Positions 3,491 through 57,731 of a stretch of DNA of 64,000 bases are shown one piece after another. The stretch is from Schmidtea nova (lineage: Eukaryota). Position numbers and translations under genes: made by a program. The notes under the pieces were generated by a model. The model was not told the DNA's origin. It saw only the letters and a program-made list of their open reading frames with translations, and did no database searches. How positions within the stretch are numbered: position 1 is the stretch's first letter; each line of letters opens with the position of its first letter. The stretch spans positions 86,056,001-86,120,000 of the forward strand of contig CM097884.1 in the NCBI GenBank assembly GCA_044892505.1. Direction: 5' to 3'.

Positions 3491-4299
3491 AAATAAAACA
3501 TTAATAGAAAGACCGGAGCTTTTAGACTCAATATTTGATATATAACAGAGTCTCATGAGCATCTCGGAAGGGTCATAATCAAGATCGCAAATATTAAAAT
3601 TATTGGCTCTATTTATTTTGTGATAAACTTCATCATATTTCAAAATAGCCAGAATGCTATAAATAAAACACAAATCGTCGGAATTTATTACATTAACAGT
3701 AGAGTGCTTTTAAATTAAAGAATTAGGGGTATTAATGTGTCTTCGACCGCTTAAAGCCACAGCTTTTAGTCAAGACAAAATGGATTTCATTGAGTTTATT
3801 AATAACCTAATTATTCATCTTATCGTTTATTAAAGATATTTTCTTTCATTTAAAAGAGTAATGCTCTTATCTAAAGTTATGCCACTCACGAGTCTTGCAG
3901 AATTTGAAATATTGAATAATTAAAATTCACAATCTTTTTCAAATTATATGTCTATACAAAATTGTATTTTGACCATCCCCATTTCATTAATTACTTTGTA
4001 TAATTTATTTGTAAAAATTTCTGGTCAAATTAAAATTTCTAAATTAAGATCAGAAATAACCATTTTAACAATGGCGTTGTATAGCGTTAGGAAGAAAAGA
4101 ACCACCACATTGAACATCTATTAGGGAATTGTCGTCGGAAAAAAATGAATAAGTTATTGTAAGTAATGTATTCATCCGAAATGATAATTATTTCATTTAT
4201 TATAGTATAGTCAACTAAAGTATTAATTATATTATAAATGTGATGTGTTTTCGGTAGAGTTAAATATTTCAGATAATTTGCCTGAATATTTTAAAAAGA

Positions 4300-4523
4300 T
4301 TAATATCAATAATTCCCATAATGGTAAGACTATAGATCAAAATTTCTTTAAATAAGTACACAAAATTTTGACAGAGCCTTTATTAAGTGTGTATACACTT
4401 GATAAAGGCTGTGCCGAAATATTATGTACTTATTTAAAAAAATTGTAATCTATAGTCTTACTATTATAGGAATTATTGATATTAATATTAAAAAAGATCA
4501 AAGGTGAAACAAAAAGATAATTA
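4300..4523 (+). mobile_element. Hairpin-plus-tail element, copy 1
   Basis: ~100-bp inverted arms centred on CAGAGCCTTTATTAAGTGTGTA/TACACTTGATAAAGGCTGTG, plus an unpaired tail AAAGATCAAAGGTGAAACAAAAAGATAATTA; flanking duplication TGAATATTT(T)AAAAAGA. Confidence 0.8.
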
Positions 4524-4739
4524 TGAATATTTAAAAAGAGTTTGGAATTAAAATTAAAAATGAAAATAAATTTTTTTATAAAGCAGTTAAAAAAATAATT
4601 ATTCTTTTTAAATTTTAAATATTAAATCCTTTGGATAATAATTTTAGTTAGTTAAATAATGGTAATTAAAAAAATTAATTTTTTTTTCAATTTAAAAATA
4701 TAATTAAGTTTTATTCATTTTACATTTTTATTAGCTATA

Positions 4740-10953: not shown

Positions 10954-12348
10954 TGTTGGGTGGTATGGGTGTTGCTACAAAAATTATTACCAACTTCTAG
11001 GAGTTAATACAACCCACACCGCAACATAAATATTACTCCGTCACACACGTGTACCAATAGTTATTCCCAGTGGCGTAACTTCATATTTTGGGCCCCCCTG
11101 CGAACTTATTCCCCAAATAACTATGTTGATACTGTACACGGTGGTGAGAATCTAGTGAGCAGGTGAGCTCCGTTGCCGAAACTACTCCTCACTAAATTCT
11201 CTCTTTCGGGTTCTTGCTGCCCATAGAAGGTCTTACGCATCTGCTTTCCTTTCGGTCCTACCGCATAATTACATCTCAATTATCCATTACTTTCCGCTAT
11301 CAACAATCTACCTTTATTCATTCTCAACTAATTAACCAAAACGATGAATACTCATTGCAATCCCATTTTCTTCCGTCCAAATTTGGTTCAAGTACGCTGC
11401 ATCGCCTAACCCTCCGAAGAGAGTTAGGGCGAGAGGCCATATACCAGCCATCGGGTCACGAGATTATCAGGACGTGCCCTTATCGATTTTACCACGGCTG
11501 TTATGAGGGTTTACCCGCAATTAACCATAAAATGTATGATTCAAAATATTTATTGACTACCATTCACATGACATGATTAAATACGATGTACATTACAACT
11601 ATCATACACCAAGCAAACTAACTCACCTACACGACTGGCTGGCGAAATTGAAATTAATATTTGTGCTAGCTCCAAACTAATTGAATTGAATTCAACTAAT
11701 TTTTTGCTTCTATTTATACTAAATAGACTGACACTCATGCATTTACCATTATATTATGATTGCAACTCAATTTATTTGTTTCAATTAACGATTATTTATT
11801 TAATTTTTTGTAAATTTTATTTTATAATTTTTTATTTTTAAAATATTTGTCTTTAATTCCGTTAAATGATGTGTGTGTCCATTGTTTTTGTACATTTATT
11901 GATTGATTAAAACAATCAAATTTAATTTAGTTCTATTTTTGTTTCTACCTCTGTTATTTTCCCGATATATCAATGGGGATTTTTCCTATACTTTTTAATA
12001 AATTATTTTCTTTATTCTGATATCAATTTTATTCTTTGATCATGCTTTGCTTTATCTTTATACAAGCAATGATCTTCCCCATTAAATTCTCGTGTGGTTC
12101 TTCGTGTGTAAATGTGACCTGCACTCAAATTTTATGTTCTCTTTTGAGATGTCTCTTTTCTATCGTTTAAGCCCTATCTCGACCGACTTGTCGAATGCGG
12201 TTCGTATGATTACCATTGTACTTTACTGTTTTATATTCTTTTGCTTTAGTTTACTACGTAATGCTTTATCGTGTGTTTTTAAACTTGTTCCTTTTTAATT
12301 TTTGATGAATTTAAACAAAGTTTTATTTACGATTTCGCCAGCCCAACA
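10954..12348 (-). mobile_element. Solo-LTR-like element, copy A (short, no long ORF on the sense strand)
   Basis: Ends TGTTGGG..CCCAACA; 4-bp TSD TTAT; shares the TATA (11711-11718), the conserved RNA motif (11157-11238) and the terminal hairpin with copies B-D. Confidence 0.8.
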
Positions 12349-21549: not shown

Positions 21550-22848
21550 CGTGGTGCGTTCAATAAGTACCCGACCAAAGGTAAAAAAATGTAATGACAA
21601 ATTTTAGTTTTTTTGTGTAAATAAATAAATAAATATAGGTTTTGATTTCAGTTATTGTTTTATTTTATCAAACGCATTAAAATTTTTATTGTGACATTTT
21701 GATTTTTCGTCGGTGTAATGATTTCAGACGTTGAGTATCGCAGCGTTATCAAGTTCTTTGTGTTGCAGAAGAAGACGTGCAGTGAAATCTACGATCTTTT
21801 GCAGTCAACTTACCTACATGACTCCCCATCTCTGACAATTGTTAAATATTGGGTCAGAGAGTTTAAAGGTGGTCGCACCTCTGTTTTTGATCAAGAAAAA
21901 TCAGGTCGGCCACAAGAAATCTTTGACACAGTTGATGAAAAATTGGAGAAGATTGTCCAAGAAGAGCGTCGAATCACCATGAAAATGCTGTCAACGAAGC
22001 TCAACATCAGTGTTGGTACAGCCCACGCCAAATTGAAATACATGGGTATCAGAAAACTGTGCTCCAGATTCGTACCCCGCTTCTTGACTGGTGAAATGAT
22101 GCGAAACCGCTTGGAGGGCAGTCAGAACAACTTGAACCTGTGGGACCAGCATGGTGAGACTTTCCTGGCAAATTTAATAACGGAGGATGAAACCCCACTC
22201 AGTATGTATTTGCCGGAAACAAAGCGTGAGTCAGCAGAGTGGAAACTGCCTGGAGAGAAGCCATTTTTGAAGATGCGAACGGAGACAAGTCATGGGCGAG
22301 CGATGATGCTTTCCATTTTCTGGGATCATAAAGGTGTTATTCTCATTGATTTCGCGGATAAAGGCATCACCATCAACGCTGCCTATTACAGCCAACTCGT
22401 GTCAACCGCCAGAAAGAATAGACGGAAGCAGAAGAATACGCCACTATGGTTTCTCCACGACAAAGCGCCAGTGCACACAGTGGGCGTTTCTCGGGCCACA
22501 ATTGAAGGTGCTGGATTAGTGCTTGTGGATCATCAGCCGTACAGCCCAGATTTGGCACCAAGCGATTTTTACCTCTTTAGACACCTAAAGAAGCATTTGA
22601 GAGGCACCCAGTTTGGATCCAAAGACGATTTGAAGGATGCCATGGAGGATTTCTTCAATGCATGTCCCCGAGATTTCTTCAAAAATGCGTTTTCTGAGTT
22701 GATTATTCGTTGGCGGAAGTGTGTGGAGCGAAATGGACATTATGTTGAAAAATGATGCCTACATACGTTAAGCTTGTTGTGTTATAAAAATGGCCCATTT
22801 TGGAATTCGTTTTCTTCGTCAGGTCGGGTACTTATTGAACACACTACG
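21550..22848 (+). mobile_element. Full-length mariner DNA transposon (1299 bp)
   Basis: 27-bp TIRs CGTGGTGCGTTCAATAAGTACCCGACC (2 mismatches) and TA TSDs. Confidence 0.97.
21718..22755 (+). CDS. Mariner transposase (DD34D), 345 aa, uninterrupted
   Basis: HTH N-terminus, FVPRFL (WVPHEL-like), TEDET, HDKA, HQPYSPDLAPSDF with 34 residues between the second and third catalytic Asp. Confidence 0.95.
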   Translation: MISDVEYRSVIKFFVLQKKTCSEIYDLLQSTYLHDSPSLTIVKYWVREFKGGRTSVFDQEKSGRPQEIFDTVDEKLEKIVQEERRITMKMLSTKLNISVGTAHAKLKYMGIRKLCSRFVPRFLTGEMMRNRLEGSQNNLNLWDQHGETFLANLITEDETPLSMYLPETKRESAEWKLPGEKPFLKMRTETSHGRAMMLSIFWDHKGVILIDFADKGITINAAYYSQLVSTARKNRRKQKNTPLWFLHDKAPVHTVGVSRATIEGAGLVLVDHQPYSPDLAPSDFYLFRHLKKHLRGTQFGSKDDLKDAMEDFFNACPRDFFKNAFSELIIRWRKCVERNGHYVEK

Positions 22849-25848: not shown

Positions 25849-25902
<54 letters not shown>

Positions 25903-26319
25903 TAGGTTCATGGATGGACCAAAACAATCAACACGTAACTAGGATAGGGATATACGATCCATGAACATACATAAATGTTCGCAACTTCCACACGTGCGCC
26001 CTTAACTATTTCCTTATGTAGTTAAGTTGGTGATGCGCAAGGTGGTTGAAAAATGATGGGCAGGTGAACTCTACTGCTAGAACTACTCCCCATTTATTTT
26101 CGCGGGTTAACGCTGCCGTTAGAGGTCTTATGCTATCGTCCATAGTTTAATTTAATAAATTTCACGTGTAAAGATCCTCAATCGATTAATTCTACTAGCT
26201 TAACTACACTTTGCTAATTCTTTCCAGGTTTAATTTAATTCAGCTACGTTAAAGTTAACGAAAATCAATGTGAACAACAACATCAAAACTCCGATACACC
26301 TTCACGAATACTTTATTAT

Positions 26320-26911
26320 TTACAAAAACTCCTTAAAGGTTCCTTCCATAGGAAAAACGTCTGCTAATAAATCGATGTCGTTCAGATTCATCAGGTGATC
26401 GATTTGCGCCTGTAGTTGCTGTGCAAACAACTTCTTTCGCCGCCTACGTTTCGATTGCATCCTCTTTCTCTTCCTTACTCCACCTGTGGAGCTTATTACT
26501 TTTGGAGGTTCTGCTGGACTTGACGCTATCGTGAAACTTAGGCCTTCTACATCAGTTCCAACTGAACAAGTCGTTTTCTTTCCGTCACCCAGTTATAATA
26601 TGTTATAGGTCGAATTTGAGACTGCAACTCTTTTTCGATAAAAGGAGTTGTCACTGAGTGGAGGCACTTTCTCAGTTCAATTTTGGTGGCCTCCCACTCT
26701 ACTTTATAATCATCCGCTGTCCGCTGTGCCCGTTCGGTCCGGGTTATCTGTTCTTTCATCCGGGCTGGCACAAACCAGCTCTTCCTTAAATACTGTATTT
26801 GGGCTTTGGCCTTTGCCAGTTTAGCCTTTAATTGTTCTAGCTCCATCCTTGAGCCCGTCTAATCCTCCACATTTTATCGAGTTCTTTTTGTTGGCTTGTT
26901 TCCTGGTTCAT
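26320..26911 (-). pseudogene. LTR-encoded coiled-coil/basic/acidic protein, copy B
   Basis: MNQETSQQKELDKMWRI/ MELEQLKAKL..SWFVP..EATKIELRKCL..IRPITY/ ..RKRKRMQSKRRRRKK..DIDLLADVF; two 1-nt frameshifts relative to copies C and D. Confidence 0.75.
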
Positions 26912-27003
26912 ACTGAAGGTACTTTAATTAATGGTTATTTATAGAAGTTTTTATTTGGTATTAATGAACATTCTATTTTATGGAATGGAAGAAATTAGAT
27001 TAA

Positions 27004-27573
27004 TCAATAAACTAAAACCAAAATTCGAAATGAAAATTTATTAGATGCTATGAGACACAAATAATTCGTTCGATTATTATACTTGCCGAAGAAATAAGCT
27101 ACATGGAGCCCTTGATGTATGGGTGTACGGTGTATATTGTCCAGTGAGAACTCCGGTTGACTGATCTCGTATTCCTTTCCGAAGGGCCGGGGTGAGGTGA
27201 AAAGTTGAAATCCCAATCTTGCAAGCTCCCCTTGCGGGATATGCCCCCAGTAAATGACTTTTGATGGTTTTTGATCGGGACCATTTATTAAAATTAGGAG
27301 TCGCCCGAATTTCGGCGAATAAAATTGCTCAGAATCCGGCAATCCCGGGCATCCTTGATACATTACTTGGTCCCGCCCAGTGTCCCATATAGTAAATAAA
27401 CATCTTTCACCGAACTCTCTTCTCCATTTGAACATTTGGACGTTGATTGTGCGCAGGATCGAGTGCGGCAAGGCCTTTAGTCCCATCTGAGATATCATGG
27501 TGGTCGCAGCAACGACAGGATCCGACGACCTTCTATGTGCGCATATAAATTGTTCTATTGTAGTTGATTCCAT
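27004..27573 (-). CDS. Orphan 189-aa ORF inside LTR copy B
   Basis: Uninterrupted, GC-richer than its flanks, sense to the LTR promoter; no recognisable domain. Confidence 0.55.
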   Translation of the reverse strand: MESTTIEQFICAHRRSSDPVVAATTMISQMGLKALPHSILRTINVQMFKWRREFGERCLFTIWDTGRDQVMYQGCPGLPDSEQFYSPKFGRLLILINGPDQKPSKVIYWGHIPQGELARLGFQLFTSPRPFGKEYEISQPEFSLDNIHRTPIHQGLHVAYFFGKYNNRTNYLCLIASNKFSFRILVLVY

Positions 27574-29360
27574 CTATATTATCGTATGAAATACTGGTGA
27601 ATCAAATATTTGATTTAATTGCAAAAATCCCTAATTTATGAGACGAGAAAAATTGGTATAGTAAGTTAATCCGCAGAGATGAAGTTAGACCTGCATTATG
27701 GACAGGTTATACACGTTGAGAAGAAAAATTGACCGTGTTCAACTTATTTAATTAACACTGTCGTGATATACCACGATCAGAATAAATTCTATCTATAATT
27801 TTATGTTCCCTGCGCTATCTACAGGGTTATAAATTTGATCGGCTTGATTTCCTTCGCTATTTACAGCGATCAGGATAAATATGTTTATATCACTACGGAT
27901 CGTCAATGTCCGATTAATCAGGGTTCGAAACTATCCGTGTATCGGACTTTGTATCTGCTGCTAAAAATTTAAGTAATAAGTGTGTCTAATCTACTAAATC
28001 GGAATTTTATCTGAATCTAGTTTAGATTGTTTATACCTAAATTGTCTATCTCTACATCTGTGGTTGTTCATTATCGATCGCATTTAAAATTTGGTAAGAG
28101 CGATTAAATTCGGATGGTTTTGATTTATTCCGATTCACCTCTGTTATGCGGACGCTAGTTAGGTAGGTAACGCAATAATAAAATCGATGTGGTTGACATT
28201 TACTACCTAAAAGAATCGTCTCTGCCTACTAGCCAAATCTCCACTTAAATGAAAAAATTACCGGTTAGCATGTGTCCCAAAATCCGTTAATTACACTCCT
28301 TCCTACTCGCTTATGATCTTTTAATTTGAGTGGTTTATGTATCGATTTTGTGTTATTATATTTACTTAGTTAAATAGTCTATGCGATGCCGTCCCTCGGT
28401 AGTACAAAAATAAAATTAAATTCTTGATAGTAGCTTAATCACCTTGGTAAAAATTTATGCCAATCGCCTACTTTTTGTGTCAGAAACGTTATACCTTGTT
28501 CCTAATTGCAACTCTACGTTATTTATGAAAAGTCTCCCTCAAACACTTTGTGAATAGCATTTATTTTTCTAACGCCCTTTGCCGAGATCGTTCCAATGTG
28601 CAACTCAGAAATTTTCGAAAAATCTCACTTTCATAAAAAAAAACTTACTCACCACCTCGTGGAGCTACGGAGCCCCTTGACGAAATCTGGCTCCCTCGCA
28701 GCGTTAGCTACAGAGGAAACATATCTATAAGTTATAAATGCATGAATGAATAAAATAGCATGAATTAAATATAATATATATTAAATACAACAATAACAAA
28801 ATCATGGCAACATTACAATATTAATTACATCATTATTACCTCTACGTTGAAATGATTAGATTTTCTCGAACAAATTACAAGTTATAAGGCTCAAAAACCG
28901 TTAAATCGTTCTGAGTCTCAAAATGAAAATAGTGCTAAAAAAAGTGTTATTTTGTGATCTTCGGATCGGTATTTATACTGATCAAGCTGGTCAGATTGAC
29001 CAATCAGTATCAGACCACCCTTCAAAGTAAATCAATCATTTTTAATTTATCTAAATCATATTTTGTTTCCGTTTTAGGTTTCTCGTTGAGTGGTCCTAAT
29101 TTTTCAAGTAATTATTTAGTTGGACTTTTATTTTGGTTAATTTATTCATAATTTTCCATTTTTCTATTTCAGTTTCCTTGTTGGTCACTTTGTTGCGTAA
29201 TTCGAATTATTTTTCTACTTGTAAGTTATTTACTGTTGTTTTAACTATTTATTTTTATTCTTTTCTTTAGATTTTCTTGGTTTTGGTAACATTATTTTGA
29301 TTATTTTTTCTTTTAATTGTTGTGTTGTTTTATGTATTTTTAAGCTATTTAGTGGGCCCA

Positions 29361-29440
<80 letters not shown>

Positions 29441-32054
29441 TGATGAGCTGTAGCCGGTTTGCACCGGTTCTATAGAACCGGTTGTTAAATATTTTGTAGT
29501 TTATAGAACCTTTGTTAATTAGGAATCAACAAATTAATTTTGTTGATACCTAATTAATAGTTGATACTATATTTAAAAACAACAAATAAATTTAAAATTT
29601 AAATATTTTCACTGCAAAGTTGGCGTTGAGATTTCTTTCACTAAAAAAGTTATTATGTGTGTATTAGCAAACATTATTTTCTTTTTTTTATTAAAGTTTA
29701 GAAGTGATAATTTTGTGCTGCTTAAAAAACTATTTTTTACAAAAAATAAAATAAATTTTAACAGAAAAACAAGAATCCATTTATCTTATTTATAAACAAT
29801 TATTAATATATTGTGAGTATATTTATATTTTCTACTTTATATCCTAAATAAGCCCATTCTTTTAGGAAATAAAATTTAATGAAACGCAAAACTAATATTC
29901 GTGATTATTTTAATAATAATAAAAAAACAATGAAGAAGAAGAGGAAAATATTTCAAATACTGTAACTCTAAGCGTAAGCCAGGAATCAGCAACAGTATCT
30001 TGCTCTAAAATTTTACCAGCCAATATCTAAAAAGAGAATAATTTTCCAGATTGCTGGAATGGTGACAAATTAAAGATATTTCAAGCTCAATATAATGGCT
30101 TGGAGGTCAAAAATAAAAAGCTTGGATGTCTAAAATGCTCCTCGTTCGATAATTTGGGTATTTGTAAAGAACAAAACATTCACATTCCACAACAATGGCA
30201 AAATTTTGAAATTCAACCATCGGGAACAACAAAAGTTATTCAACAGGCTTCATTAAGAAAATAAATGTCTGAACATTTTAAATCAAAAACACATTTAATG
30301 GTTTTAAAAATGCTTGAACAAAAAGAAAAAAATGAACTACCCAGAATCATCTATTCAAATAATGCCAAAAATATGGCTAGTACTAATAAAATATTCAATA
30401 TTAATTACAGCTTAATAAAAAGAAATAGACCGCTTTCAGATTTGGAAGCAGAAGTTGAACTTCAGGTTAAAAATGGGGTAGATCTTGGAATTTCGCTTCA
30501 TTCTAGGTTTAGTGCAATTAGAATAGCAGAACACATAGCAAAACAAATGAAAAAATAATTGTTGAAAAAATAATTGCATCCAATTCAAAAATTTGCGTAA
30601 TCATAGATGAAGCCTCAATTATATCAAGCAAATCGGTGCTAGTCATTTTTTTGAAGTTTGAAATGGAAAAAGAAAATTCAATATTTTTTTTGGACTTAGT
30701 TCATTTAGAATCTCAAACCGCTGAGCATATTTTTAATATTCTAATGCAAACACTAAACTCAAATGGCTTTTCCACGGATTTTTTGAAAGAAAATCTTATT
30801 GGTTTTTGTTCTGATGGTGCAAGTACAATGCTTGGTCAAAAGTCAGGTGTTGTTACAAGGTTAATAAAAGAATTTCCTTATGTAATAGTTTGGCATTGCT
30901 TAAACATCGTCTTCAGCTGGTTTTGGATGACGCAATAGACGAAATAAAGCAAGTAAATCATTTTAAATCATTTATCAATAAAATTTATGTAATTTTTCTT
31001 CAATCAAATAAAAATCAATTGCGCTTACAAAATATATCGCGAGATTTGGAAGTGGAAATAATTAAAATAGGCGAGTCTTAGGCCCAAGATGGGCAGCATG
31101 CAGCTTAAGATCTGATATGGCTGTTTGACGGGCTTATGTACCACTTTTCAAATTTCTTAAGGATGATTCCAAATATCTTGGTATGGCAAACCGACTTGCG
31201 AATAAATATTTTATAAAGGATTTAGCACTTATGATCGATATTCTTCATGAGATGTCCTATTTGTCAATAGGATTACAAGCTAGGTTTGTTACCCTTCAAA
31301 AGGCAACGAAACTGATAAAAAGAACTATAAATATTATGATAAATTTGAAAGAAAATTTAGGAACATTTGAAAAAAAAGTTGAAGAAATGTTGTCGTCACC
31401 TGCATTTGCAGATATTCTTTTTGTGGAAAATAAAAAATTTGAAAGTCTCCCAAGAAAAAAACTTATTGAAACAATAATTGATAAAATGAATTCCCGAATG
31501 TTAAATTGTAGACATATGTTGTGGCTTTGGATGGGTTAAAACCAAAGATAGATAAACGCTCTAGGGATGCCTCCATCCAAGCCTAAACATAAAATGCTTT
31601 CACGACACACGAGCACCCTCGACTATTTCCCTGGATAATCGAGCTGGAAATGTGCAAGGTGTTTGAACAATGATGGGCAGGTGAGCTCTATTTCTAAAAC
31701 TACTCCCTATTTATGTTCACGGGTCCATTGCTGCCGATAGAAGGACTTACGCTTTACTTTCTTTTTAATTTATCCGAATTCATTGTCTTTCATTTTAGTT
31801 TTCTGCCCCCTTCTTTACAATATCAACAGATGATTTGAATAATTATATATATATATCTTTACTTTAATGTTCCTATTGTTTATCCTTTATCGAATTGTGT
31901 TAGCATCTTTGCCAATTATAATTTGTATTTGATATTTTAATTTAAAATTTTAATAACTACTTTATTTCAACAATAAAATAAGCACAAAACTAAAATATAA
32001 TAAAACTAAAATTTTATACACAACAGTAATATTAATAAATTATTTTCGACCATT

Positions 32055-32668
32055 TCATTCGAAATATTTGAGGAAATCATCGTCAACTGCCGCAAAATCT
32101 GTGGTTAAGTCTATTTCCGGAAATTCATCATTATGTTGAATCATTTGTTCCACAAATTGTTTTTTCCATCTGCGTTGCCTTGCACCCATCTTGTTTTTCT
32201 TTTTCTTTTTGATCTCGATGGTTGATACACTTTTCGATGCGGCTTGATTTTCCATTGCGCGAACCTGCGATGGTTCTTCTGTATTAGTACCTTTTGTGCA
32301 TTCAGCCTTCTCTTCTGACCAATGTTGATAAGTGATTGGTCGTATTAGTTGCTTCAATTACTGTTGATAAATGAGGTGGTGACTGCCTTGAGGCATTTTC
32401 TCAACTAAATCTTGGTTGCCTCGAGTTCCATTCTGAATTCATCATTCGATCGCTGAGAACGTTGGTTTTTCAGGAGTTGAGTTTTCATTTGGTCGGGGTT
32501 GAACCAACTGGTTCGGAATTGCGATATTGTAGCTTCTGCTGTTTTCAATTTTTCCTTTGTTCGGCCGATTTCCTTTTCCAGGCTGCGAATAATTCGCCAA
32601 GCCTTGTCTAATTCATTTTGTAGGTTCATTGAATTTCCTGTCATTTTCTGAAAATCAATGAGTGTCAT
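32055..32668 (-). pseudogene. LTR-encoded coiled-coil/basic/acidic protein, copy C
   Basis: ORFs 32405-32668 and 32055-32357 join through one stop (GAG>TAG) and one frameshift when aligned to copies B and D. Confidence 0.8.
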
Positions 32669-33758
32669 TAGTTAAAATTTCAGCTAGTTTGAATTATATT
32701 AACCGATTCTGTTTTATACTTTCCTCGGAAGGATTCGTTGAGTTTTCTTTTATTTTAAACTAAGGAGTGAAATAAATACATTCTATAATGTCAACACTGT
32801 CGCTATGTACAGCGATCAGATAAGTTTGGTTACAATATTTAATTACCCGTACCTGTGCTATCTACAGCAATCAGGTTGATAATTTACGAAAATGTTAAAG
32901 AAAAATAAGTTCTTCTGCCCTATGTACAGGGATCAGGATAACAAATTAACGTTTATTATTGTTTGGTCTGGAATAAGAATTAGATCAATTCTAATCGATT
33001 GTTTTTTGTTTGTGTGGTAGTTCAGCTACCCACCTGAATTCTTGCATTATGGTTATCGACCCTGAGTTATAAAATTTCATTCTAAATTTATATTCTAAAT
33101 GGTATTCAAAAATTTGAACGATGATGCTGGCCACTTCATACAACAAACCCTAGATGCACGATCTCGCAAAGAAACACGGTATTACTCTGAATACTTCCCT
33201 GATGAATGTTAAGTTTAAATGTTAATTTATCATCATAAAAAAATACTGAATGATAAAATTGAAATAAAGCTGGCTGTACTGCTCAGCGATAAATAAAAAT
33301 CCTACCCTCTTCGTGGCACTTAATACCAGGCAGTCCGCCTAACTGCAAGAAGTAGTTAAATCTACTCGGCACACTCTGCCTCCTTCCACCGATTTCACGA
33401 TGGACAGGAGCGCCCTTGTTTCATAAATATAAAATAATTCATTTCGCCTCCTTCCACCGATTACACAGTGGACAGGAGCGCAAGTGACTCATAAATAATA
33501 ATTAAAAAATCAATTCAATAAATTTGCCTCCTTCCATCGATTACACAGTGGAAGGAGCGCGCTTCTCATAAAAATAAATAACAAAAATTATCATAAATAT
33601 TTAATTCAAGACAGAAATTATGATAGAAAAATTATAAACATATGAAATCACAACATAAATCATACATACCTAGTAGCTGTTGATCAAAATTTTGCGAAAA
33701 TCAAAAATTTCTAGTGACAAAAATCATATACCATTAAATTTGTCTGAATCTGAATCAG

Positions 33759-33792
33759 TATTTATACTGATCAGATTAGCTCATCAACCAAT
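33759..33792 (-). promoter_or_regulatory. LTR promoter: TATAAATA with upstream CCAAT box
   Basis: TATTTATA on + at 33759-33766, 46545-46552, 28970-28977 and 11711-11718; CCAATCAG about 25 bp further out in B and C. Confidence 0.7.
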
Positions 33793-34768
33793 CAGCGTGA
33801 AGCTGATGATCAAAATATATAATTCTATTAAAAATAATCAATTTAATTTTTTGTTTGAATTAACTGTAATTTTATTAATTTTATTATTATGTAATTTTAA
33901 CTCTTTTTCTTAATTACTTATTTATTTAAATTGTTAACCATTTTATTACATTTAAATCTCATTTTCTTATTACTTTTTACATCCTAATTTTGTTTTTTAT
34001 AACTTTTATAATATCATTTATTTCTTTTCTATTTCTTTTAATTCTTTTTAATGGAATTTCTTTCCAATACATAAATTTTCCTAATTCTTATTTATTTTCT
34101 TATTATTATTACTTATATATTTAAATGTTAGTCAAATGGTGGACCCAACACATATAAGAATGACAAAAAATGAAAAAAATAACGACATTGCCGAATTATT
34201 TAATTTACTTGAAGCTGATTGGAATTTGGAAGAAATTACTTGTCCGTGGATTTTGGGAGAAGAAAAATTGAAATGAAATAATTAGATAAGAAATTCCCAT
34301 TAATGATTTCAGAGATTATGTTCAAAATGTAATTGAAGGAAAAACCTCTGAAATAGAAACAATTCAAAAAGCTAAAAATAAAATTAACACCATTGCTATA
34401 AGTTCATCAGAGGCCGAACGAGGATTCTCAATAATGAATATTATTTGTGAAAAAAAAGAGCTTATCTTTCAGTAGAACATATTCCTAGTTTAATGAGTAT
34501 TAATATGATTGGACCACCACTTGAATCATGGAATTCTGGAGAATATGTCAAAACTTGGTTGAGGAATCATAATTCAGCTGATGATACCAGGATTCGAAAT
34601 GCGCCAAAAAATATTAATGAAAATAATAAAATCAATTGGAAATTATTATAATAATTTAAAAAAAAAATAAAAAAAATCTATTTAAATAAAATGATATTTT
34701 ATTAAAATAAAACGATTTTTAGTTTTTGGTTTTATAGAACCGGTTGTAAAATGTTTGGCAGCTCATCA

Positions 34769-38250: not shown

Positions 38251-38326
38251 TTTAAATTAATATGACTTCATATTTTATTATTATTATTCTTTAATTATAA
38301 TACAAAGATAAATGATAATAGTAATA

Positions 38327-38568
38327 TTAATATCAATAATTCCCATAATAGTAACACTATAAATCGAGATTTCTTTAAACAAGTACACACGATTTCGGCA
38401 CAGCCTTTATCAAGTGTGTAATACTTTATCAACTAATACACACTTGATAAAGGCTGTGCCAAAATATTATGTACGTGTTTAAAGAAATTTTGATCTATAG
38501 TCTTACCATTATGGGAATTATTGATATTACTAATAATAAAAGGTCAAAGGTGAAACAAAAAGATAATT
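38327..38568 (+). mobile_element. Hairpin-plus-tail element, copy 2
   Basis: Same arms and tail as copy 1; 16-nt loop; flanking duplication ATGATAATA(G/A)TAATA. Confidence 0.8.
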
Positions 38569-39159
38569 ATGATAATAATAATAGTTATGAAGTTTTCTAA
38601 ATCATTCATCAATATATCAAAAAAGAAACTATCTTTAAATTTAAATATTTATTTACTAAAAAACAATTATTCAAACAACAACTTATTTAAAAAATGTATA
38701 TAATATTTACCCAACATTATCTGTTTATTTATTTATCTGTGATTCCGGAACGCTCAAAGTTTACTACGATTACTTTTTTTTTATTCAATGTTTTCCACAT
38801 TTTTTCTTTTTGGGGATTTTTTGAAGAGAATTTATGACCATATTGATCTTGGATATACAGGATCAAGATCAAGAAACGCATAAAATGTCAAAATCAAGAT
38901 TGAAGATGGACATTTGTTAGGAGACGATCGTGTATTCACACGAAACATTGTGTACAACGAAATTCTTTAGGCCAATCATAATAAGTTTAATAAAATTCTA
39001 AGTTAAAAGTTAACAACTTTAAAAAAACATTTATTTTTTTCAATTGTTTACTACTAAAAAATGAAACTGCCAAAAGTGAAAAATTGACTAAGGGGGCGCC
39101 TTGGCGCTTTAGAACAACCTAGTCTATAAATAAACATTAAGACTTTTTAAATCTTACAT

Positions 39160-44165: not shown

Positions 44166-46925
44166 TGTTGGGTGCCATGGATGGGTTAAAACAAAAGATA
44201 AACGCTCTAGGGATGCCTCTATCCATGACCAAACATGAAATGTATTCGTGACACACAAGCACCCTCGATTATTTCCCTGGGTAATCGAGTTGGAAATGTG
44301 CAAGGTGTTTGAACAATGATAAGCAGGTGAGCTCTATTACTAGAACTATTCCCCATTTATGTTCACGGGTTCGTCGCTGCCGATAGAAGGACTTACGCTT
44401 TACTTTATCTGGATTGATTATATTTCCTTTTATTATTCCTGCCCCCTTCTTACAGTATCAACAGTTAATTTGAATCATTTATATGTTAGATCTTAACGTT
44501 TATCATTTGTCAAATTTCATTAATACTTTTGTATACATAATTTTGTATTTAATTACTTTATATTAAAATTTTTGAATAAACTTTATTTTCCATTACTCTA
44601 CCGTATTATGGTTTAACCAAAAAAAAAATAATGATAAATTAAACTACATTTCTATTTAAAATAACAACAGAATTCATTAGGCAGTTAAGAACGCGAAGAA
44701 ATCTTCGTCTGTTGATGCAAAATCTGTTGAAAGATCTATTTCTGGCAGTTCATCGGAATGACTAATTAAGTGTTGCATAACTTGTTTCCTCCACCTTCTT
44801 TGTCTGGCTCCCATTTTATATTTACTTTTCTTTTTGTTCTCGATGATGGTTGGTGAGACGTTTGGTGCGGTTGTAGTCTTTATTTCAAGAACCTGCAACG
44901 GTCCTTCCGTATTTGTTCCTTTTGAACACCCTGCTATCTCCTCTGACCAATGTTGATATGTAATTGGTCGGATCAACTGTTTTAGCTCACGGTCTATGAA
45001 CGATGTGGTGATTACCTTGAGGCATTTCCTTTACTCGATTTTTGTTGCCTCGAGCTCTGTTCTGTATTTTTCTCCTGCTCTCTGCGACCGTTGATTCTTC
45101 ATGATTTGAATCTTCATTTGTTCGGGAGTGAACCAGCTTTTATTACGGTGTGCGTTTAGCGCTTCTGCTGCCTTCAGTTTCTCTTTGGTTTGATTTAGTT
45201 CCTTTTCGAGGCTGCGAACGATTCGCCAAGCCTTATCCAACTCAGTAGAGGAAGTTATTGGATTTGTTCCCATTATTCTAAAAATCGATTACGATTATTG
45301 ATATACTTCCAGTTTTGTAGATAATGATGAAAATTTGTGTTTAAGGTTCTTTATGATTTAACGAGAATAGTTCTTACGGACTCCATGTCATTTTTTAAAT
45401 GATGATTTCATTTAAGTTGATATAATTTTTATTTTAAATGGGAGAATGAAGAGAATCCGCTATGCAGTTCAACACTGTCGCTATGTACAGCGATCAGGAT
45501 AACCATATAATTTATAAAATTTTAGCTCTGCTGCCCTATCTACAGGGATAAGAATACTGAATATATTTATATTTGAATTATTCTGTCGTCTATTTGCTTA
45601 TACTTTAGCTATTTACACCAAATCGGATGATCACTACAATATGTAGCCTACGTTGATTTATTATGTATACGCCAACCTGTTACCAAATCCAAGAGAAAAA
45701 AACAATCTCAATTGCAATAACGCTAATCTGGAATTATCGATCATTATGTTTTGGCAATTTAAGAAAATTCTGGTCAATCTACAATCCTACATGAATCTAC
45801 ATAAATTTTAAACTAGTTGTCAAAGAAGATGATAATCAAAGTAATGCGACCTCTCTAGATCCTGGACAATATTTATCAGCTACAGTTTTCTCTACTTGTT
45901 GGTAGTCAAAAATTTATAGTTGGAAATTTCATTCTTTGATTTTTATCAATTCGTTGTATGGAAATCAACATTATCCTCGTGCGCCAAATTCCGGATGCAC
46001 AATCTCTACTCATGATCGGTTTAAAAACAAATTTCTTTTGCCCAAAGTTCAGGTAATAAAATAAATTTCGAGTATCAAATTTCACTGTTAAAATTATTGG
46101 TTAATAAAAATATACCCATCAGCTGTACTGGTTGGGGTTGCTATCATAAAAATTCAATTCTAAAGTACTCTACCGTCTTCATGACATTTAATACCATGAA
46201 GATGGCCTAACTTCACGGAGTAGTTAATCCACTCAGGCGAAGTCTGCCTCCTTCCACCGATTACACGGTAGAAAGAAGCTCCCTTTAATCATTAATATAA
46301 TAAAATACTTCATTTCGCCTCCTTCCACCGATTACACAGTGGAAGGAGCCCAATCTGACAACATTAACATGAGTGTAAAATAAAATATTTCTTTTTAAAT
46401 TTATTAAAATTTCAAAAATCATGATAACATATAATCATAACAATTTAAAATCAAACAATGCTCATACTTGCTAAGCTATCAGTCTTCAATAAAGAAAATT
46501 TTCTGACAAAAATTCATAAGTTAAATTGTCTGATTCTGGTTCAGTATTTATACTGAACCGATCAGCACACCGATCAATCAGCGTCAAGCTGATGGTCGTA
46601 AAACCAAATTATTTATAAATCAAACAATTTAATTTTTTGTTTAAATTGATCATAATTTTATTAATTATTTTCTTAATTAATTATTTATTTTAATTGATAA
46701 ATATTTCATTACATTTCTTAATCATTAATTCTCATTTTTCTTACATTTATATATTATTTTTATGTCTTTTTATTATTTTTATTATACCATTTATTTCTGG
46801 TCTTATTATTTCAATTCATTCCATTTAAATCTCTTCTTATAGTATGTGTTTTACTATGGTTATTTTTATTATATTTATTATTATTATTTATTTATTCAAA
46901 TGATGGTCAAGTGGTGGACCCAACA
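44166..46925 (-). mobile_element. Solo-LTR-like element, copy D (2760 bp)
   Basis: TGTTGGG..CCCAACA ends; TSD TTTT; inserted in a Polinton ORF (LIKYNF|KEIENL rejoins). Confidence 0.9.
44677..45273 (-). pseudogene. LTR-encoded coiled-coil/basic/acidic protein, copy D
   Basis: ORFs 45031-45273 and 44677-44976 are in one frame separated by a single TAA (EATKIE*RKCLKVITTSFIDRELKQLIRPITY). Confidence 0.85.
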
Positions 46926-55600: not shown

Positions 55601-56442
55601 AAATTTTAAAATTAGTTTTAAATTAGCACTACCCCAACATGTCTTTCTCTTTTAAACAAAATTCGTCCTCGTATATGGCGAGGTTGATCTTCTGAATATT
55701 CTGGATTTAAAAATGTGTTGATAATTATTGTATACCACTTAGAGATTTTTTTTCATTTTTTTAATATGTAAAATAAATATATTGTTTTATTATAAATTTG
55801 CATATCGCCCACAGGCAGTGACCAAATATTACTAAACGAATATTTTCTATCAAACAAATATTTGTTTCCCTTACTGTAATGCATTATTTTCTTGTCATTT
55901 TTTACATTAAAATAAATAATTTTACACCAAGAAAAAATAAATCTCAACCAATAATAAACGCAAAAGATTGTATCATATATTGAAAATTCTGCAAAATTGA
56001 AGCCTTCTCACAATAAATATTTTGATCTCATTTAATACAATTTCTTCTTGAAATTCTGAGAATTATGATTTCCATTTAATTTTCGATATAGAAATTACAT
56101 TTAAATTAAATTAAGTTTCAAATTTTTTCAGTTCTCCAAAGCATCCAATAATTGTCATTCCAAGTTCATTTTCTGATACTCACAATTATTCTTAGACTTT
56201 TACCTTGTGGAGTTAAGGAATTAGCATCATATCTCTTTTAGAAAGAGATAAATTTAATTAAATTGTATTTGTCGTCATAACAATAGCTTCATAAAGCAGA
56301 AAATCATTGAGACAGATAAATTTTCAATGTTTTAAGATCTGAACTTTCTAAAATAAATTGAGCCTATTTGTTCGGTTACAAATTTTGAGTCCTCGTGCTG
56401 CTATAATTACAAATCATCAAAACCCAACACAATAAATTTTAT

Positions 56443-56655
56443 CATAATTATCTTTTTTCACCTTTGATCTTTTTTTATTATTATTATCAATAATTCTCAT
56501 AATGACTATAGATCAAAATTTTTTTTTTATAAACAATAACACAATATTTCGGCACAGCCTTTACACTTGATAAAGGCTGTGCCGAAATATTGTGTTATTG
56601 TTTATAAAAAAAAAATTTTGATCTATAGCCATTATGAGAATTATTGATAATAATA
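56443..56655 (-). mobile_element. Hairpin-plus-tail element, copy 3
   Basis: Opposite orientation; perfect 14-bp TSD ACAATAAATTTTAT (56429-56442 and 56656-56669). Confidence 0.85.
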
Positions 56656-57545
56656 ACAATAAATTTTATTGAATTCCAAAATTAAAAAACGATAAATCAA
56701 TACAATTTCTATTTTCTACAAAAGACTCAACTCTCTTTTTTATTCCAGCGATAGGGGTAGGTCTATTAAGGGTAGATTGCTCTTTCTGATACGCTTTTGG
56801 TTTGCTAATGTCAGTTTTCTGACAATCACACTCTTTCCACTTACCAAATGCATAGTACTCCCGACAAATAATTTTTACTTCTGCCAAACTGGCGATTTAC
56901 TGTCGTTTTGCTATTTCTTTTATAATAATTTATTTCGTTAACATATCAATTAAATTTCAGAATGGGGACATAATATAATTATCCTTTTTTTATAATCGGA
57001 TTTTCATGGAAATCAGATGATTGCAGTTTCTTATAATTTAATAATTTCAAGCTGTGACTCAGATAATTTGATTTTGTTCGGATTTTACATTCGTTTGGCT
57101 TTCCAGGATAATAGAATTTTCTACTAAACTAATAAATTATTCATTAATTTTTAATTAATTTTTTATTTATTGAATATATTTTTTAGGGACATTTTATTTT
57201 TTAGGATATTTTAATATCATATTCATACTCGTATCCCCATTTGCCGTTCGTACATGACAATTTCCTCCACGATATGTCAAATTTTAACTNNNNNNNNNNN
57301 NNNNNNNNNNNNNNNNNNNNNNNNNNNNNNNNNNNNNNNNNNNNNNNNNNNNNNNNNNNNNNNNNNNNNNNNNNNNNNNNNNNNNNNNNNNNNNNNNNNN
57401 NNNNNNNNNNNNNNNNNNNNNNNNNNNNNNNNNNNNNNNNNNNNNNNNNNNNNNNNNNNNNNNNNNNNNNNNNNNNNNNNNNNNNNNNNNNNNNNNNNNN
57501 NNNNNNNNNNNNNNNNNNNNNNNNNNNNNNNNNNNNNNNNNNNNN

Positions 57546-57731
57546 CATAATGGATGACTATAGATCAAATATTTTTAAATAAGTACACGATATTTCGGCA
57601 CAGCCTTTATCAAATACACACTTGATAAAGGCTGTGCCGAAATATCGTGTACTTATTTATAAAGATTTTGATCTATAGTCATCCATTATGAAAATTATTG
57701 ATATTAATAATAAAAAAAGATCAAAGGTGAA
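57546..57731 (+). mobile_element. Hairpin-plus-tail element, copy 4 (gap on both sides)
   Basis: Same arms and start of the tail (AAAGATCAAAGGTGAA). Confidence 0.8.

What the first reader, a model, noticed from the sequence alone, without database searches (positions are those of the whole stretch)
11157..11238. Conserved structured RNA motif with a covarying GNRA hairpin and splice-donor-like start in the LTR U5
Seen: an ~80-nt block conserved in four otherwise divergent copies (11157, 26058, 31675, 44322). Minus-strand consensus: GCGUAAG..GGCAGC..ACCCG..GGAGUAG-[stem]-CUCACCUGCY. The stem covaries (UUUCG-GCAA-CGGAG, UUCUA-GCAG-UAGAG, UUUUA-GAAA-UAGAG, UUCUA-GUAA-UAGAG); its G.U pairs only work on the minus strand, and GGCAG/CUGCY closes the unit. 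It lies 75-210 nt downstream of AAUAAA and starts with GC|GUAAG(U). Known: in HIV and foamy viruses a downstream splice donor suppresses 5'-LTR polyadenylation, and GNRA-hairpin clusters form packaging signals. Inference: a packaging/dimerisation and poly(A)-control element, or an unclassified ribozyme.
Basis: partly seen in the sequence, partly recalled or inferred. Interest (0 to 1): 0.75.

Follow-up and report, generated by a model that had tools for sequence, protein, structure and literature searches.

The report
Primer-docking RNA fold in giant retrotransposons
Thousands of end-repeats of giant jumping genes in an animal genome, probably a planarian's, share a predicted RNA fold that in complete elements lies just before the tRNA primer site and likely grips the proline tRNA at extra points to start copying; one loop resembles a self-cutting RNA, but cutting is untested.

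Summary
The block is real but is only the front third of a 220-270-nt conserved RNA domain at the 3' end of LTRs of Burro-like giant Gypsy elements; the four window copies are solo LTRs. Its 14-nt core occurs 14,697 times in the genome (control 4). Across 25 lineages two rods covary (23 of 31 pairs change on both sides; U.G in 25 of 25, sense strand only). In 5' LTRs a third stem pairs across the LTR end to within 1-2 nt of an 18-nt tRNA-Pro primer site. A conserved GRACCC(G) is complementary to that tRNA's T-arm, where the HIV primer activation signal pairs, and a CCCUAG loop to its D-loop (modest statistics). Best reading: a reverse-transcription initiation platform (0.55). The splice donor is in only 13 of 25 lineages and AAUAAA spacing is not conserved. 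The UAG/GCUCA loop shares 8 of 11 positions with twister-sister-like ribozymes but fails their other features. No RNA data; R/U5 border unknown; no Rfam match. Earlier scan notes described these LTRs and 'a conserved end piece', not this fold.

The parts
10954..12348 (-). Solo LTR, copy 1 (1395 bp, TG..CA, 4-bp TSD TTAT)
   Evidence: same family has a 5' LTR with tRNA-Pro PBS (L050) and 3' LTRs next to a gag-like internal region (L044, L045)
10954..11238 (-). Whole conserved structured domain in copy 1 (lengthened here by an insertion of about 50 nt in the apical loop of the second rod)
   Evidence: sense fold z -2.91, antisense z 0.07
11232..11238 (-). GCGUAAG, splice-donor-like; lineage-restricted
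   Evidence: 13 of 25 lineages; no RNA junction data
11217..11230 (-). Block I (CCUUCUAWCGGYAG type), most conserved segment, partner unknown
   Evidence: 14,697 exact genome matches against 4 control; not tRNA-complementary
11207..11213 (-). Block II GAACCCG, complementary to tRNA-Pro T-arm CGGGUUC (PAS-like)
   Evidence: GRACCC follows 12,606 of 14,697 block I matches across variable linkers
11146..11201 (-). Rod P-a: long irregular helix, G.G mismatch, 1x3 loop U/CAC, capped by the tetraloop hairpin
11166..11183 (-). Seven-pair hairpin with GCAA loop; base A-U, G-C, U.G nearly invariant, top four pairs covary
11163..11168 (-). Block III GCUCAC; with the UAG opposite it resembles the twister-sister-like loop
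   Evidence: against PMC11620745 passages
11044..11143 (-). Rod P-b with an 8x1 internal loop (block IV, ..CCAA, at 11126-11133) closed by two C-G pairs
   Evidence: 16 of 18 pairs with two-sided change
10954..11030 (-). Terminal stem P-c; its UUUAUG strand (11022-11030) pairs in 5' LTRs with the terminal CA plus the spacer before the PBS; loop carries CCCUAG-type block VI (10997-11003, one change in this copy)
11313..11318 (-).
11711..11720 (-). TATA-like AGTATAAATA, present 370-630 nt inside the U3 end of all four LTRs
   Evidence: 6 matches in the window against 0.95 expected; 4 are in these LTRs
25900..29363 (-). Solo LTR, copy 2 (in an AT microsatellite); motif core 26058-26133; carries ORFs 26547-26858 and 27004-27573
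31517..34150 (-). Solo LTR, copy 3 (TSD CATA, inserted in a transposase-like gene); motif core 31675-31752, block II 31720-31726
   Evidence: the empty site is seen in all four read sets
44166..46925 (-). Solo LTR, copy 4 (TSD TTTT); motif core 44322-44398, block II 44366-44372

Best explanation
The block is the front part of a 220-270-nt covarying RNA domain at the 3' end of the LTRs of Burro-like giant Gypsy elements, and it likely serves as the platform on which the tRNA-Pro primer is docked and reverse transcription starts. Shown by sequence: three stems (P-a, P-b, P-c) between block I and the LTR end; an 18-nt PBS for the genome's tRNA-Pro 6-10 nt behind the 5' LTR; complementarity of the P-c base to the LTR end plus that spacer; complementarity of GRACCC(G) to tRNA positions 50-56 and of CCCUAG to the D-loop. 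Inferred: when the PBS opens the acceptor and T stems, the freed 5' T-arm strand pairs with block II (as proposed for the HIV PAS) and the freed D-loop with block VI; the rods fold out about 200 nt so that both sites lie near the PBS, and the P-c base forms a U5-IR-like stem into which the primer is extended. Blocks I, III and IV are probably tertiary contacts or Gag/RT binding sites; that part is unexplained. In the window the copies are solo LTRs without PBS, hence relics.
For: PBS: 478 LTR-end+PBS matches against 1 control; all 41 PBS strings in my loci (with duplicates) are of tRNA-Pro type; tRNA from the genome. [quoted passage not shown] Block II: best of all U5-window x tRNA-register combinations (score 0.92) and it falls on the T-arm; 8 of 5000 random 7-mers score as well at a fixed site; duplex -11.3 against -8.5+/-1.1 kcal/mol, 3 of 200 shuffles, same register in 19 of 25; the variable R is A or G, both of which pair with U55; kept in 12,606 of 14,697 copies across different linkers; unpaired probability >=0.5 in 9 of 11 families. 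Block VI: -12.5 against -9.7+/-1.2, 5 of 200 shuffles; tRNA-Lys and -Arg give -8.3 and -7.1. Covariation. Precedent: PAS/T-arm in HIV and RSV, T- and D-region contacts in Ty1/Ty3.
Against: Without the prior on the T-arm the block II match is not significant (25 of 300 shuffled tRNAs reach it). Five blocks were tested and blocks II and VI were picked after I saw the complementarity, so 3/200 and 5/200 are optimistic. T-arms are alike among tRNAs (Lys 0.78, Arg 0.79 at the T-arm; Lys reaches 0.90 elsewhere). Block VI was found in 19 of 25 lineages only, and the most abundant family has a different loop. Block II could instead pair with the 3' end of the PBS itself (one mismatch). No family with another primer was found, so no covariation between primer and block could be tested. 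The most conserved blocks (I, III, IV) are not tRNA-complementary. No shuffle control was run for the AU-rich P-c base. Block II is about 210-250 nt from the PBS, farther than in HIV (recalled: about 50 nt). The HIV PAS interaction is itself disputed and the Ty1 box 2.1 contact was not confirmed in particles. Copy 3 alone folds no better than shuffles (z -1.23).
Confidence: 0.55

Rival explanations
1. The domain is mainly a packaging, dimerisation or export signal bound by Gag nucleocapsid or a host protein; the invariant loops (U/CAC, 8x1 CCAA bulge, block I) are binding sites and the tRNA matches are chance. Not exclusive with the best reading.
For: Blocks I, III and IV are the most conserved and have no tRNA partner; GNRA loop in 18 of 25; non-autonomous elements without a detected pol ORF keep the domain.
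Against: Retroviral packaging signals mostly lie downstream of the PBS (recalled); no conserved palindrome was seen in the loops (by eye); it does not explain the stem across the LTR end to the PBS.
Confidence: 0.17
2. The domain controls 3'-end formation: GUAAG binds U1 to damp a poly(A) site at the 5' LTR, or P-a is an HIV-like poly(A) hairpin with NAUAAA in its lower loop and cleavage at the invariant CA.
For: A TATA-like box lies 370-630 nt into U3, so the genome RNA may have to pass a poly(A) site serving the LTR genes; GUAAG in 13 of 25; AAUAAA at +30 inside P-a in 4 of the 12 largest clusters, CAUAAA or GAUAAA in others; foamy virus shows that a donor inside R can work through different folds at the two ends.
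Against: Donor absent from 12 of 25 lineages and has C at -1; hexamer positions differ by family and are frequent in these AT-rich LTRs (8 in 1430, 15 in 3250, 15 in 4433 nt); the most abundant family has neither donor nor +30 hexamer; no poly(A)-tailed retrocopy ends 48-78 nt after block I (0 matches; weak test).
Confidence: 0.13
3. P-a holds a self-cleaving ribozyme related to twister sister that cuts at C|A in GCUCAC, trimming the kilobase LTR leader and, with a cut in each LTR, giving a unit-length RNA that could circularise as in plant retrozymes.
For: 8 of the 11 loop positions named for the LINE-1 TS-like ribozyme (G7 C8 U9 C10 A11; U38 A39 G40) are matched in 23-25 of 25 lineages, in the same arrangement, including the scissile CA; ribozymes in LTRs with PBS exist (retrozymes); the region before the 3' LTR has no purine tract.
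Against: Position 12 is C in 23 of 25, the change that nearly abolished activity in LINE-1 (RA' 0.03); positions 36/37 are A and G/A/U, never G-C; G7 is not bulged but sits in an invariant U.G pair (116 of 125 cells pair in this register, 60 of 100 in the TS register); no Rfam ribozyme hit at any copy; a cut in only one LTR would remove the repeat needed for strand transfer.
Confidence: 0.12
4. The conservation acts at DNA level (promoter or protein sites) or reflects recent shared ancestry only.
For: Block I is pyrimidine-rich and unpaired in the consensus fold; several lineages are related (tree).
Against: 55 independent Watson-Crick swaps by parsimony in 31 pairs; invariant U.G; slid controls pair 29-45% against 86%; the rest of the LTR does not align between families.
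Confidence: 0.03

Closest known systems
HIV-1 / RSV primer activation signal (PAS; U5-TPsiC interaction) (PMC3185550, PMC11181671, PMC11251516: passages read)
   Same: Short conserved U5-side motif complementary to the 5' strand of the primer's T-arm, beside a full 18-nt PBS.
   Different: About 210-250 nt upstream of the PBS with two large rods between; tRNA-Pro; Gypsy element; a second, D-loop-complementary loop; no experiment.
U5-IR stem-loop of retroviruses and Tf1 (PMC3601003 passage; Lin and Levin 1998 seen as a title only)
   Same: Stem formed by LTR and LTR-adjacent sequence directly 5' of the PBS.
   Different: Spans a 6-10-nt spacer between the terminal CA and the PBS; the loop carries a conserved hexamer; tRNA-primed, not self-primed.
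Ty1 boxes 0/1/2.1 and Ty3 bipartite PBS (PMC5371799, PMC3592414: passages read)
   Same: LTR retrotransposon RNA pairs with T and D regions of its primer outside the PBS.
   Different: There the PBS is short and the boxes complete it, with tRNAiMet; here the PBS is a full 18 nt and the extra sites lie upstream, inside the LTR.
Twister-sister-like ribozymes LINE-1-rbz / OR4K15-rbz (PMC11620745: passages and section 9 read)
   Same: GCUCA strand opposite UAG, C-G and U-A pairs, CA at the cut position, hairpin cap as in the permuted form.
   Different: 3 of 11 loop positions differ, one by the known inactivating change; G7 is paired with an extra invariant U; no activity shown.
Burro / GYPSM1 giant Gypsy-like elements of planarians (PMC6431247: passages of section 7 read)
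   Same: About 28 kb, multi-kb LTRs, zinc knuckle - fusion glycoprotein - PR - RT - RH - IN - ankyrin, MATH/TRAF.
   Different: The passages read describe proteins only, not the primer or LTR RNA structure; I could not compare with Burro sequences directly.
Plant retrozymes (PMC6765202: passages read)
   Same: LTR elements with 4-bp TSD and PBS, conserved RNA inside the LTR.
   Different: They carry hammerheads, are small and non-coding; no hammerhead at these copies.

Membership tests
Burro-like giant Gypsy LTR element | TG..CA LTRs with short TSD | tested here: met
   4 of 4 window copies, 4-bp TSD (copy 2 in an AT repeat, TSD ambiguous)
Burro-like giant Gypsy LTR element | Giant polyprotein with gag knuckle, fusion protein, PR-RT-RH-IN, ankyrin, MATH | tested here: met
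   In a full-length relative that carries the same motif (L249-L251), not in the window copies, which are solo LTRs
Burro-like giant Gypsy LTR element | Sequence or RT-tree placement with published Burro1-4 | not testable with these tools
   No Burro sequence held; the primary paper was not available
Primer activation signal (PAS) | Complementarity to the 5' T-arm of the tRNA that matches the PBS | tested here: met
   7 of 7 pairs in most lineages
Primer activation signal (PAS) | Changes together with primer identity | tested here: inconclusive
   Only tRNA-Pro PBSs found; one family with GAAACCG lacks a PBS behind its LTR (L340, L341), anecdotal
Primer activation signal (PAS) | Needed for efficient tRNA-primed initiation | not testable with these tools
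   Bench assay
U5-IR stem | Stem between U5 and the bases directly 5' of the PBS | tested here: met
   32 of 33 sequences, predicted; variants keep pairing; no shuffle control
Twister-sister-like ribozyme | Long strand G-C-U-C-A with scissile CA; short strand ending U-A-G | tested here: met
   23-25 of 25 at each of 8 positions
Twister-sister-like ribozyme | Position 12 A (or U), short strand beginning G-C | tested here: not met
   C in 23 of 25; A then G/A/U; A12C nearly inactive
Twister-sister-like ribozyme | G7 outside the stem, forming a base triple | tested here: not met
   Invariant U.G pair; covarying register 116/125 against 60/100
Twister-sister-like ribozyme | Mg2+-dependent self-cleavage | not testable with these tools
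   Bench assay
HIV-type poly(A) suppression by a splice donor | Donor present only downstream of the 5' LTR, at a fixed distance from AAUAAA | tested here: not met
   Donor inside the LTR, 13 of 25 lineages, spacing variable
Foamy-type poly(A) suppression | Donor in R upstream of the poly(A) signal, folded differently at the two ends | tested here: inconclusive
   AAUAAA-like hexamer 30 nt after block I in some families; R borders unknown
Any Rfam family | Covariance-model match | tested here: not met
   No match at E<=10 over the motif in the window or in 5 relatives

The most novel reading that the evidence does not exclude
The invariant UAG/GCUCAC loop is the core of a new self-cleaving ribozyme, a twister-sister variant completed by blocks I and IV, that cuts both LTR copies of the transcript; an autonomous, envelope-carrying 28-kb retroelement would then shed its kilobase gene-bearing leader and replicate through a ribozyme-defined, possibly circular RNA on which the tRNA-Pro primer is held at three sites.
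Probability: 0.1. Interest if true: 0.88.

Novelty: new variant of a known kind. Interest (0 to 1): 0.52.

Why it matters
Extended primer-template contacts are disputed even in HIV because few natural variants exist to test them. Here thousands of copies in dozens of lineages keep a T-arm-complementary site, a D-loop-complementary loop and a stem abutting the PBS while the helices between them covary, which gives a ready alignment for structure probing of a metazoan Gypsy initiation complex, and a sensitive marker for an LTR clade with roughly 40,000 copies in this genome (26 hits in 800 kb sampled, extrapolated). The three most conserved blocks remain unexplained; a cheap cleavage assay would settle whether they form a ribozyme.

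Tried and rejected
Rfam: nothing at the copies. Self-priming as in Tf1: the apparent complement of block I behind one LTR was the target-site duplication of a solo LTR inserted into another LTR's block I. PBS starting TGGCG: 0 matches. Pseudoknot ACCC with GGGY of P-b: 82% paired against 81.2% shuffled, 172 of 500. Long-range partner for block I in three full-length elements: no conserved site. Blocks I, III, IV against tRNA-Pro: no better than shuffles. Homologues elsewhere: 0 in viral contigs; 49 pattern hits in metagenomes, 0 of 49 with block IV, best profile E 0.079; exact-pattern scans cannot show absence. RNA: no RNA holder listed; the four contig sets laid on copy 3 gave no information on starts, ends or splicing. 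Poly(A)-tailed retrocopies: 0. An apparent second TATA 150-200 nt upstream was, by eye, the stop codon of the LTR ORF. Families with another primer: not found. Hammerhead, HDV, twister, pistol, hairpin, group II D5/D6, U2-branch and rRNA resemblances were considered from memory and dropped for lack of their core residues; not tested beyond Rfam. A last script (LTR-to-LTR identities, Pumilio motif positions) did not run, so identities between window LTRs and the full-length relatives outside the motif were not computed.

Full report
Observation. The four blocks are at the stated places on the minus strand. They lie in four elements with TG..CA ends and 4-bp target duplications: 10954-12348, 25900-29363, 31517-34150 and 44166-46925. 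Copy 3 interrupts a transposase-like gene, and the empty site is present in all four read sets. Between copies 1 and 3 only the motif aligns. Rfam has nothing there.

What the elements are. The 90 closest genomic relatives of copies 1-3 have unrelated flanks at the motif end, apart from one pair that shares a duplicated flank; one flank (L050) is a primer binding site, and two loci (L044, L045) continue at the other end into an internal region with a zinc-knuckle ORF. LTR end plus TGGGGGCTC occurs 478 times against 1 control; the 18-nt site is the complement of the genome's tRNA-Pro(UGG). Three full-length relatives of 13.5, 22.8 and 28.4 kb have the motif at the same place in both LTRs; the largest encodes zinc knuckle, fusion glycoprotein, protease, RT, RNase H, integrase, ankyrin and MATH/TRAF domains, the order described for planarian Burro elements (passages). 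So the minus strand is the sense strand, the window copies are solo LTRs, and the host is probably a dugesiid planarian (inference). The 14-nt core occurs 14,697 times against 4 control; 26 profile hits in 800 kb of evenly spaced sample suggest about 40,000 copies.

Structure. 213 hits fell into 46 clusters; I aligned one natural copy of 25 of them, leaving out truncated, internally deleted and the most decayed or divergent ones; 9 divergent copies, 5 of them also in the first set, were aligned apart. RNAalifold found the tetraloop hairpin and a second rod with an 8x1 loop. My 31-pair model for both rods has 86.2% of cells paired (shuffled 72.5+/-0.9, 0 of 500), 23 pairs with two-sided change (1 of 500), and slid controls at 29-45%. 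The model was read from these sequences, which favours it, and lineages are related; parsimony on a tree from the same alignment still needs 55 Watson-Crick swaps. A U.G pair is present in 25 of 25, which fixes the strand. Copy 1 folds well on the sense strand only; copy 3 alone does not beat shuffles.

Link to the primer. In 5' LTRs the conserved UUUAUG strand pairs with the terminal CA and the spacer outside the LTR, ending 1-2 nt before the PBS (32 of 33 distinct sequences), a U5-IR-like stem. Of all 7-nt windows against all registers of the part of tRNA-Pro not bound by the PBS, the best match is block II on the T-arm (0.92; next unrelated match 0.79); 25 of 300 shuffled tRNAs reach this anywhere, 8 of 5000 random 7-mers at a fixed site. 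Duplex energies favour block II (3 of 200 shuffles) and the CCCUAG loop against the D-loop (5 of 200; found in 19 of 25), but not blocks I, III, IV. GRACCC follows 12,606 of 14,697 core matches although the linker varies, and a pattern for variants with a non-C in its last place gave 6 matches. This is the position of the HIV PAS and akin to T- and D-region contacts in Ty1 and Ty3. The statistics are modest, partly post hoc, and the decisive test (a family with another primer) was not available. In the window, copy 2 has lost the first G of block II.

Rivals. Splice donor and poly(A) control: GUAAG in 13 of 25 lineages, hexamer positions family-specific, donor inside the LTR unlike HIV; a foamy-like arrangement or a poly(A) hairpin in P-a remains possible. 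A TATA-like box lies 370-630 nt into all four LTRs; if it starts the genome RNA, the leader is kilobases long, which is unexplained. No RNA holder was listed, so R and U5 are not mapped. Ribozyme: the loop matches 8 of 11 positions of the twister-sister-like core, including the scissile CA, but has the inactivating C at position 12, lacks the G-C start of the short strand and pairs the G that should be bulged. It is not a member; the resemblance justifies an assay.

Novelty. No description of this fold was found in nine searches of the open library; subscription papers, the primary Burro paper, Repbase entries and all supplements were not seen and could bear on this. Papers seen: abstract and section 3 of PMC3694450; section 9 and passages of PMC11620745; passages only of PMC6431247, PMC11410931, PMC11251516, PMC5371799, PMC11181671, PMC3185550, PMC13524379, PMC3601003, PMC3592414, PMC6765202; Beerens and Berkhout 2002 and Lin and Levin 1998 as titles only. 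No homologue outside this genome was found; other animal genomes could not be searched. Earlier scan notes describe the same LTR clade and a conserved end piece, not its RNA structure. The labels P-a, P-b, P-c and blocks I-VI are mine.

Verdict. A real, strongly conserved and apparently undescribed RNA domain of a planarian giant-Gypsy clade; most likely a variant of the known primer-docking leader (0.55), with its most conserved residues unexplained and a roughly one-in-ten chance of a new ribozyme. Interest 0.52.

Noticed in passing
L044, L045 right flank; full-length elements: No polypurine tract before the 3' LTR. Instead all 12 junction hits (9 distinct) carry a hairpin with a GGA loop followed by a GGGCCCC-type run that resembles the tRNA-Pro 3' end and is complementary to the PBS over 7-9 pairs; the spacer to the LTR is longer in the family whose PBS spacer is longer. 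Could circularise the RNA or replace the usual plus-strand primer.
   Followed up: partly
L167-L196: The PBS starts 6-10 nt behind the terminal CA instead of the usual 0-3 (recalled), so the DNA end would need unusual trimming before integration.
   Followed up: partly
window 26547-26858, 27004-27573, 32055-32660, 44677-45290: Solo LTRs carry sense-strand ORFs; no Pfam match for the three tested. Noted before by the scan.
   Followed up: partly
window 27754-27890, 32791-32940, 45471-45556: Short repeated hairpins in the LTR middle whose sense-strand loop reads like a Pumilio element, matching an earlier scan note.
   Followed up: no
L091:7427-8782: A solo LTR of the copy-1 family inserted, in opposite orientation, exactly into block I of another LTR of the clade.
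   Followed up: yes
window about 11070-11120: An insertion of about 50 nt in the apical loop of P-b, absent from the other family members aligned; the stems around it are intact.
   Followed up: partly
G000:C1:459.6 Mb (L237-L244): Tandem tRNA-Pro(UGG) array with a 308-bp period; 1105 matches of the tRNA pattern in the genome; one unit has a TAT anticodon in a Pro body.
   Followed up: partly
window 4296-4526, 38322-38575, 56439-56663, 57546-57731: A family of long perfect palindromes (miRNA-like Rfam hits below threshold), probably MITE-like repeats.
   Followed up: no
window 21703-22755: Open 350-codon frame that reads like a mariner-type transposase (by eye, not searched).
   Followed up: no
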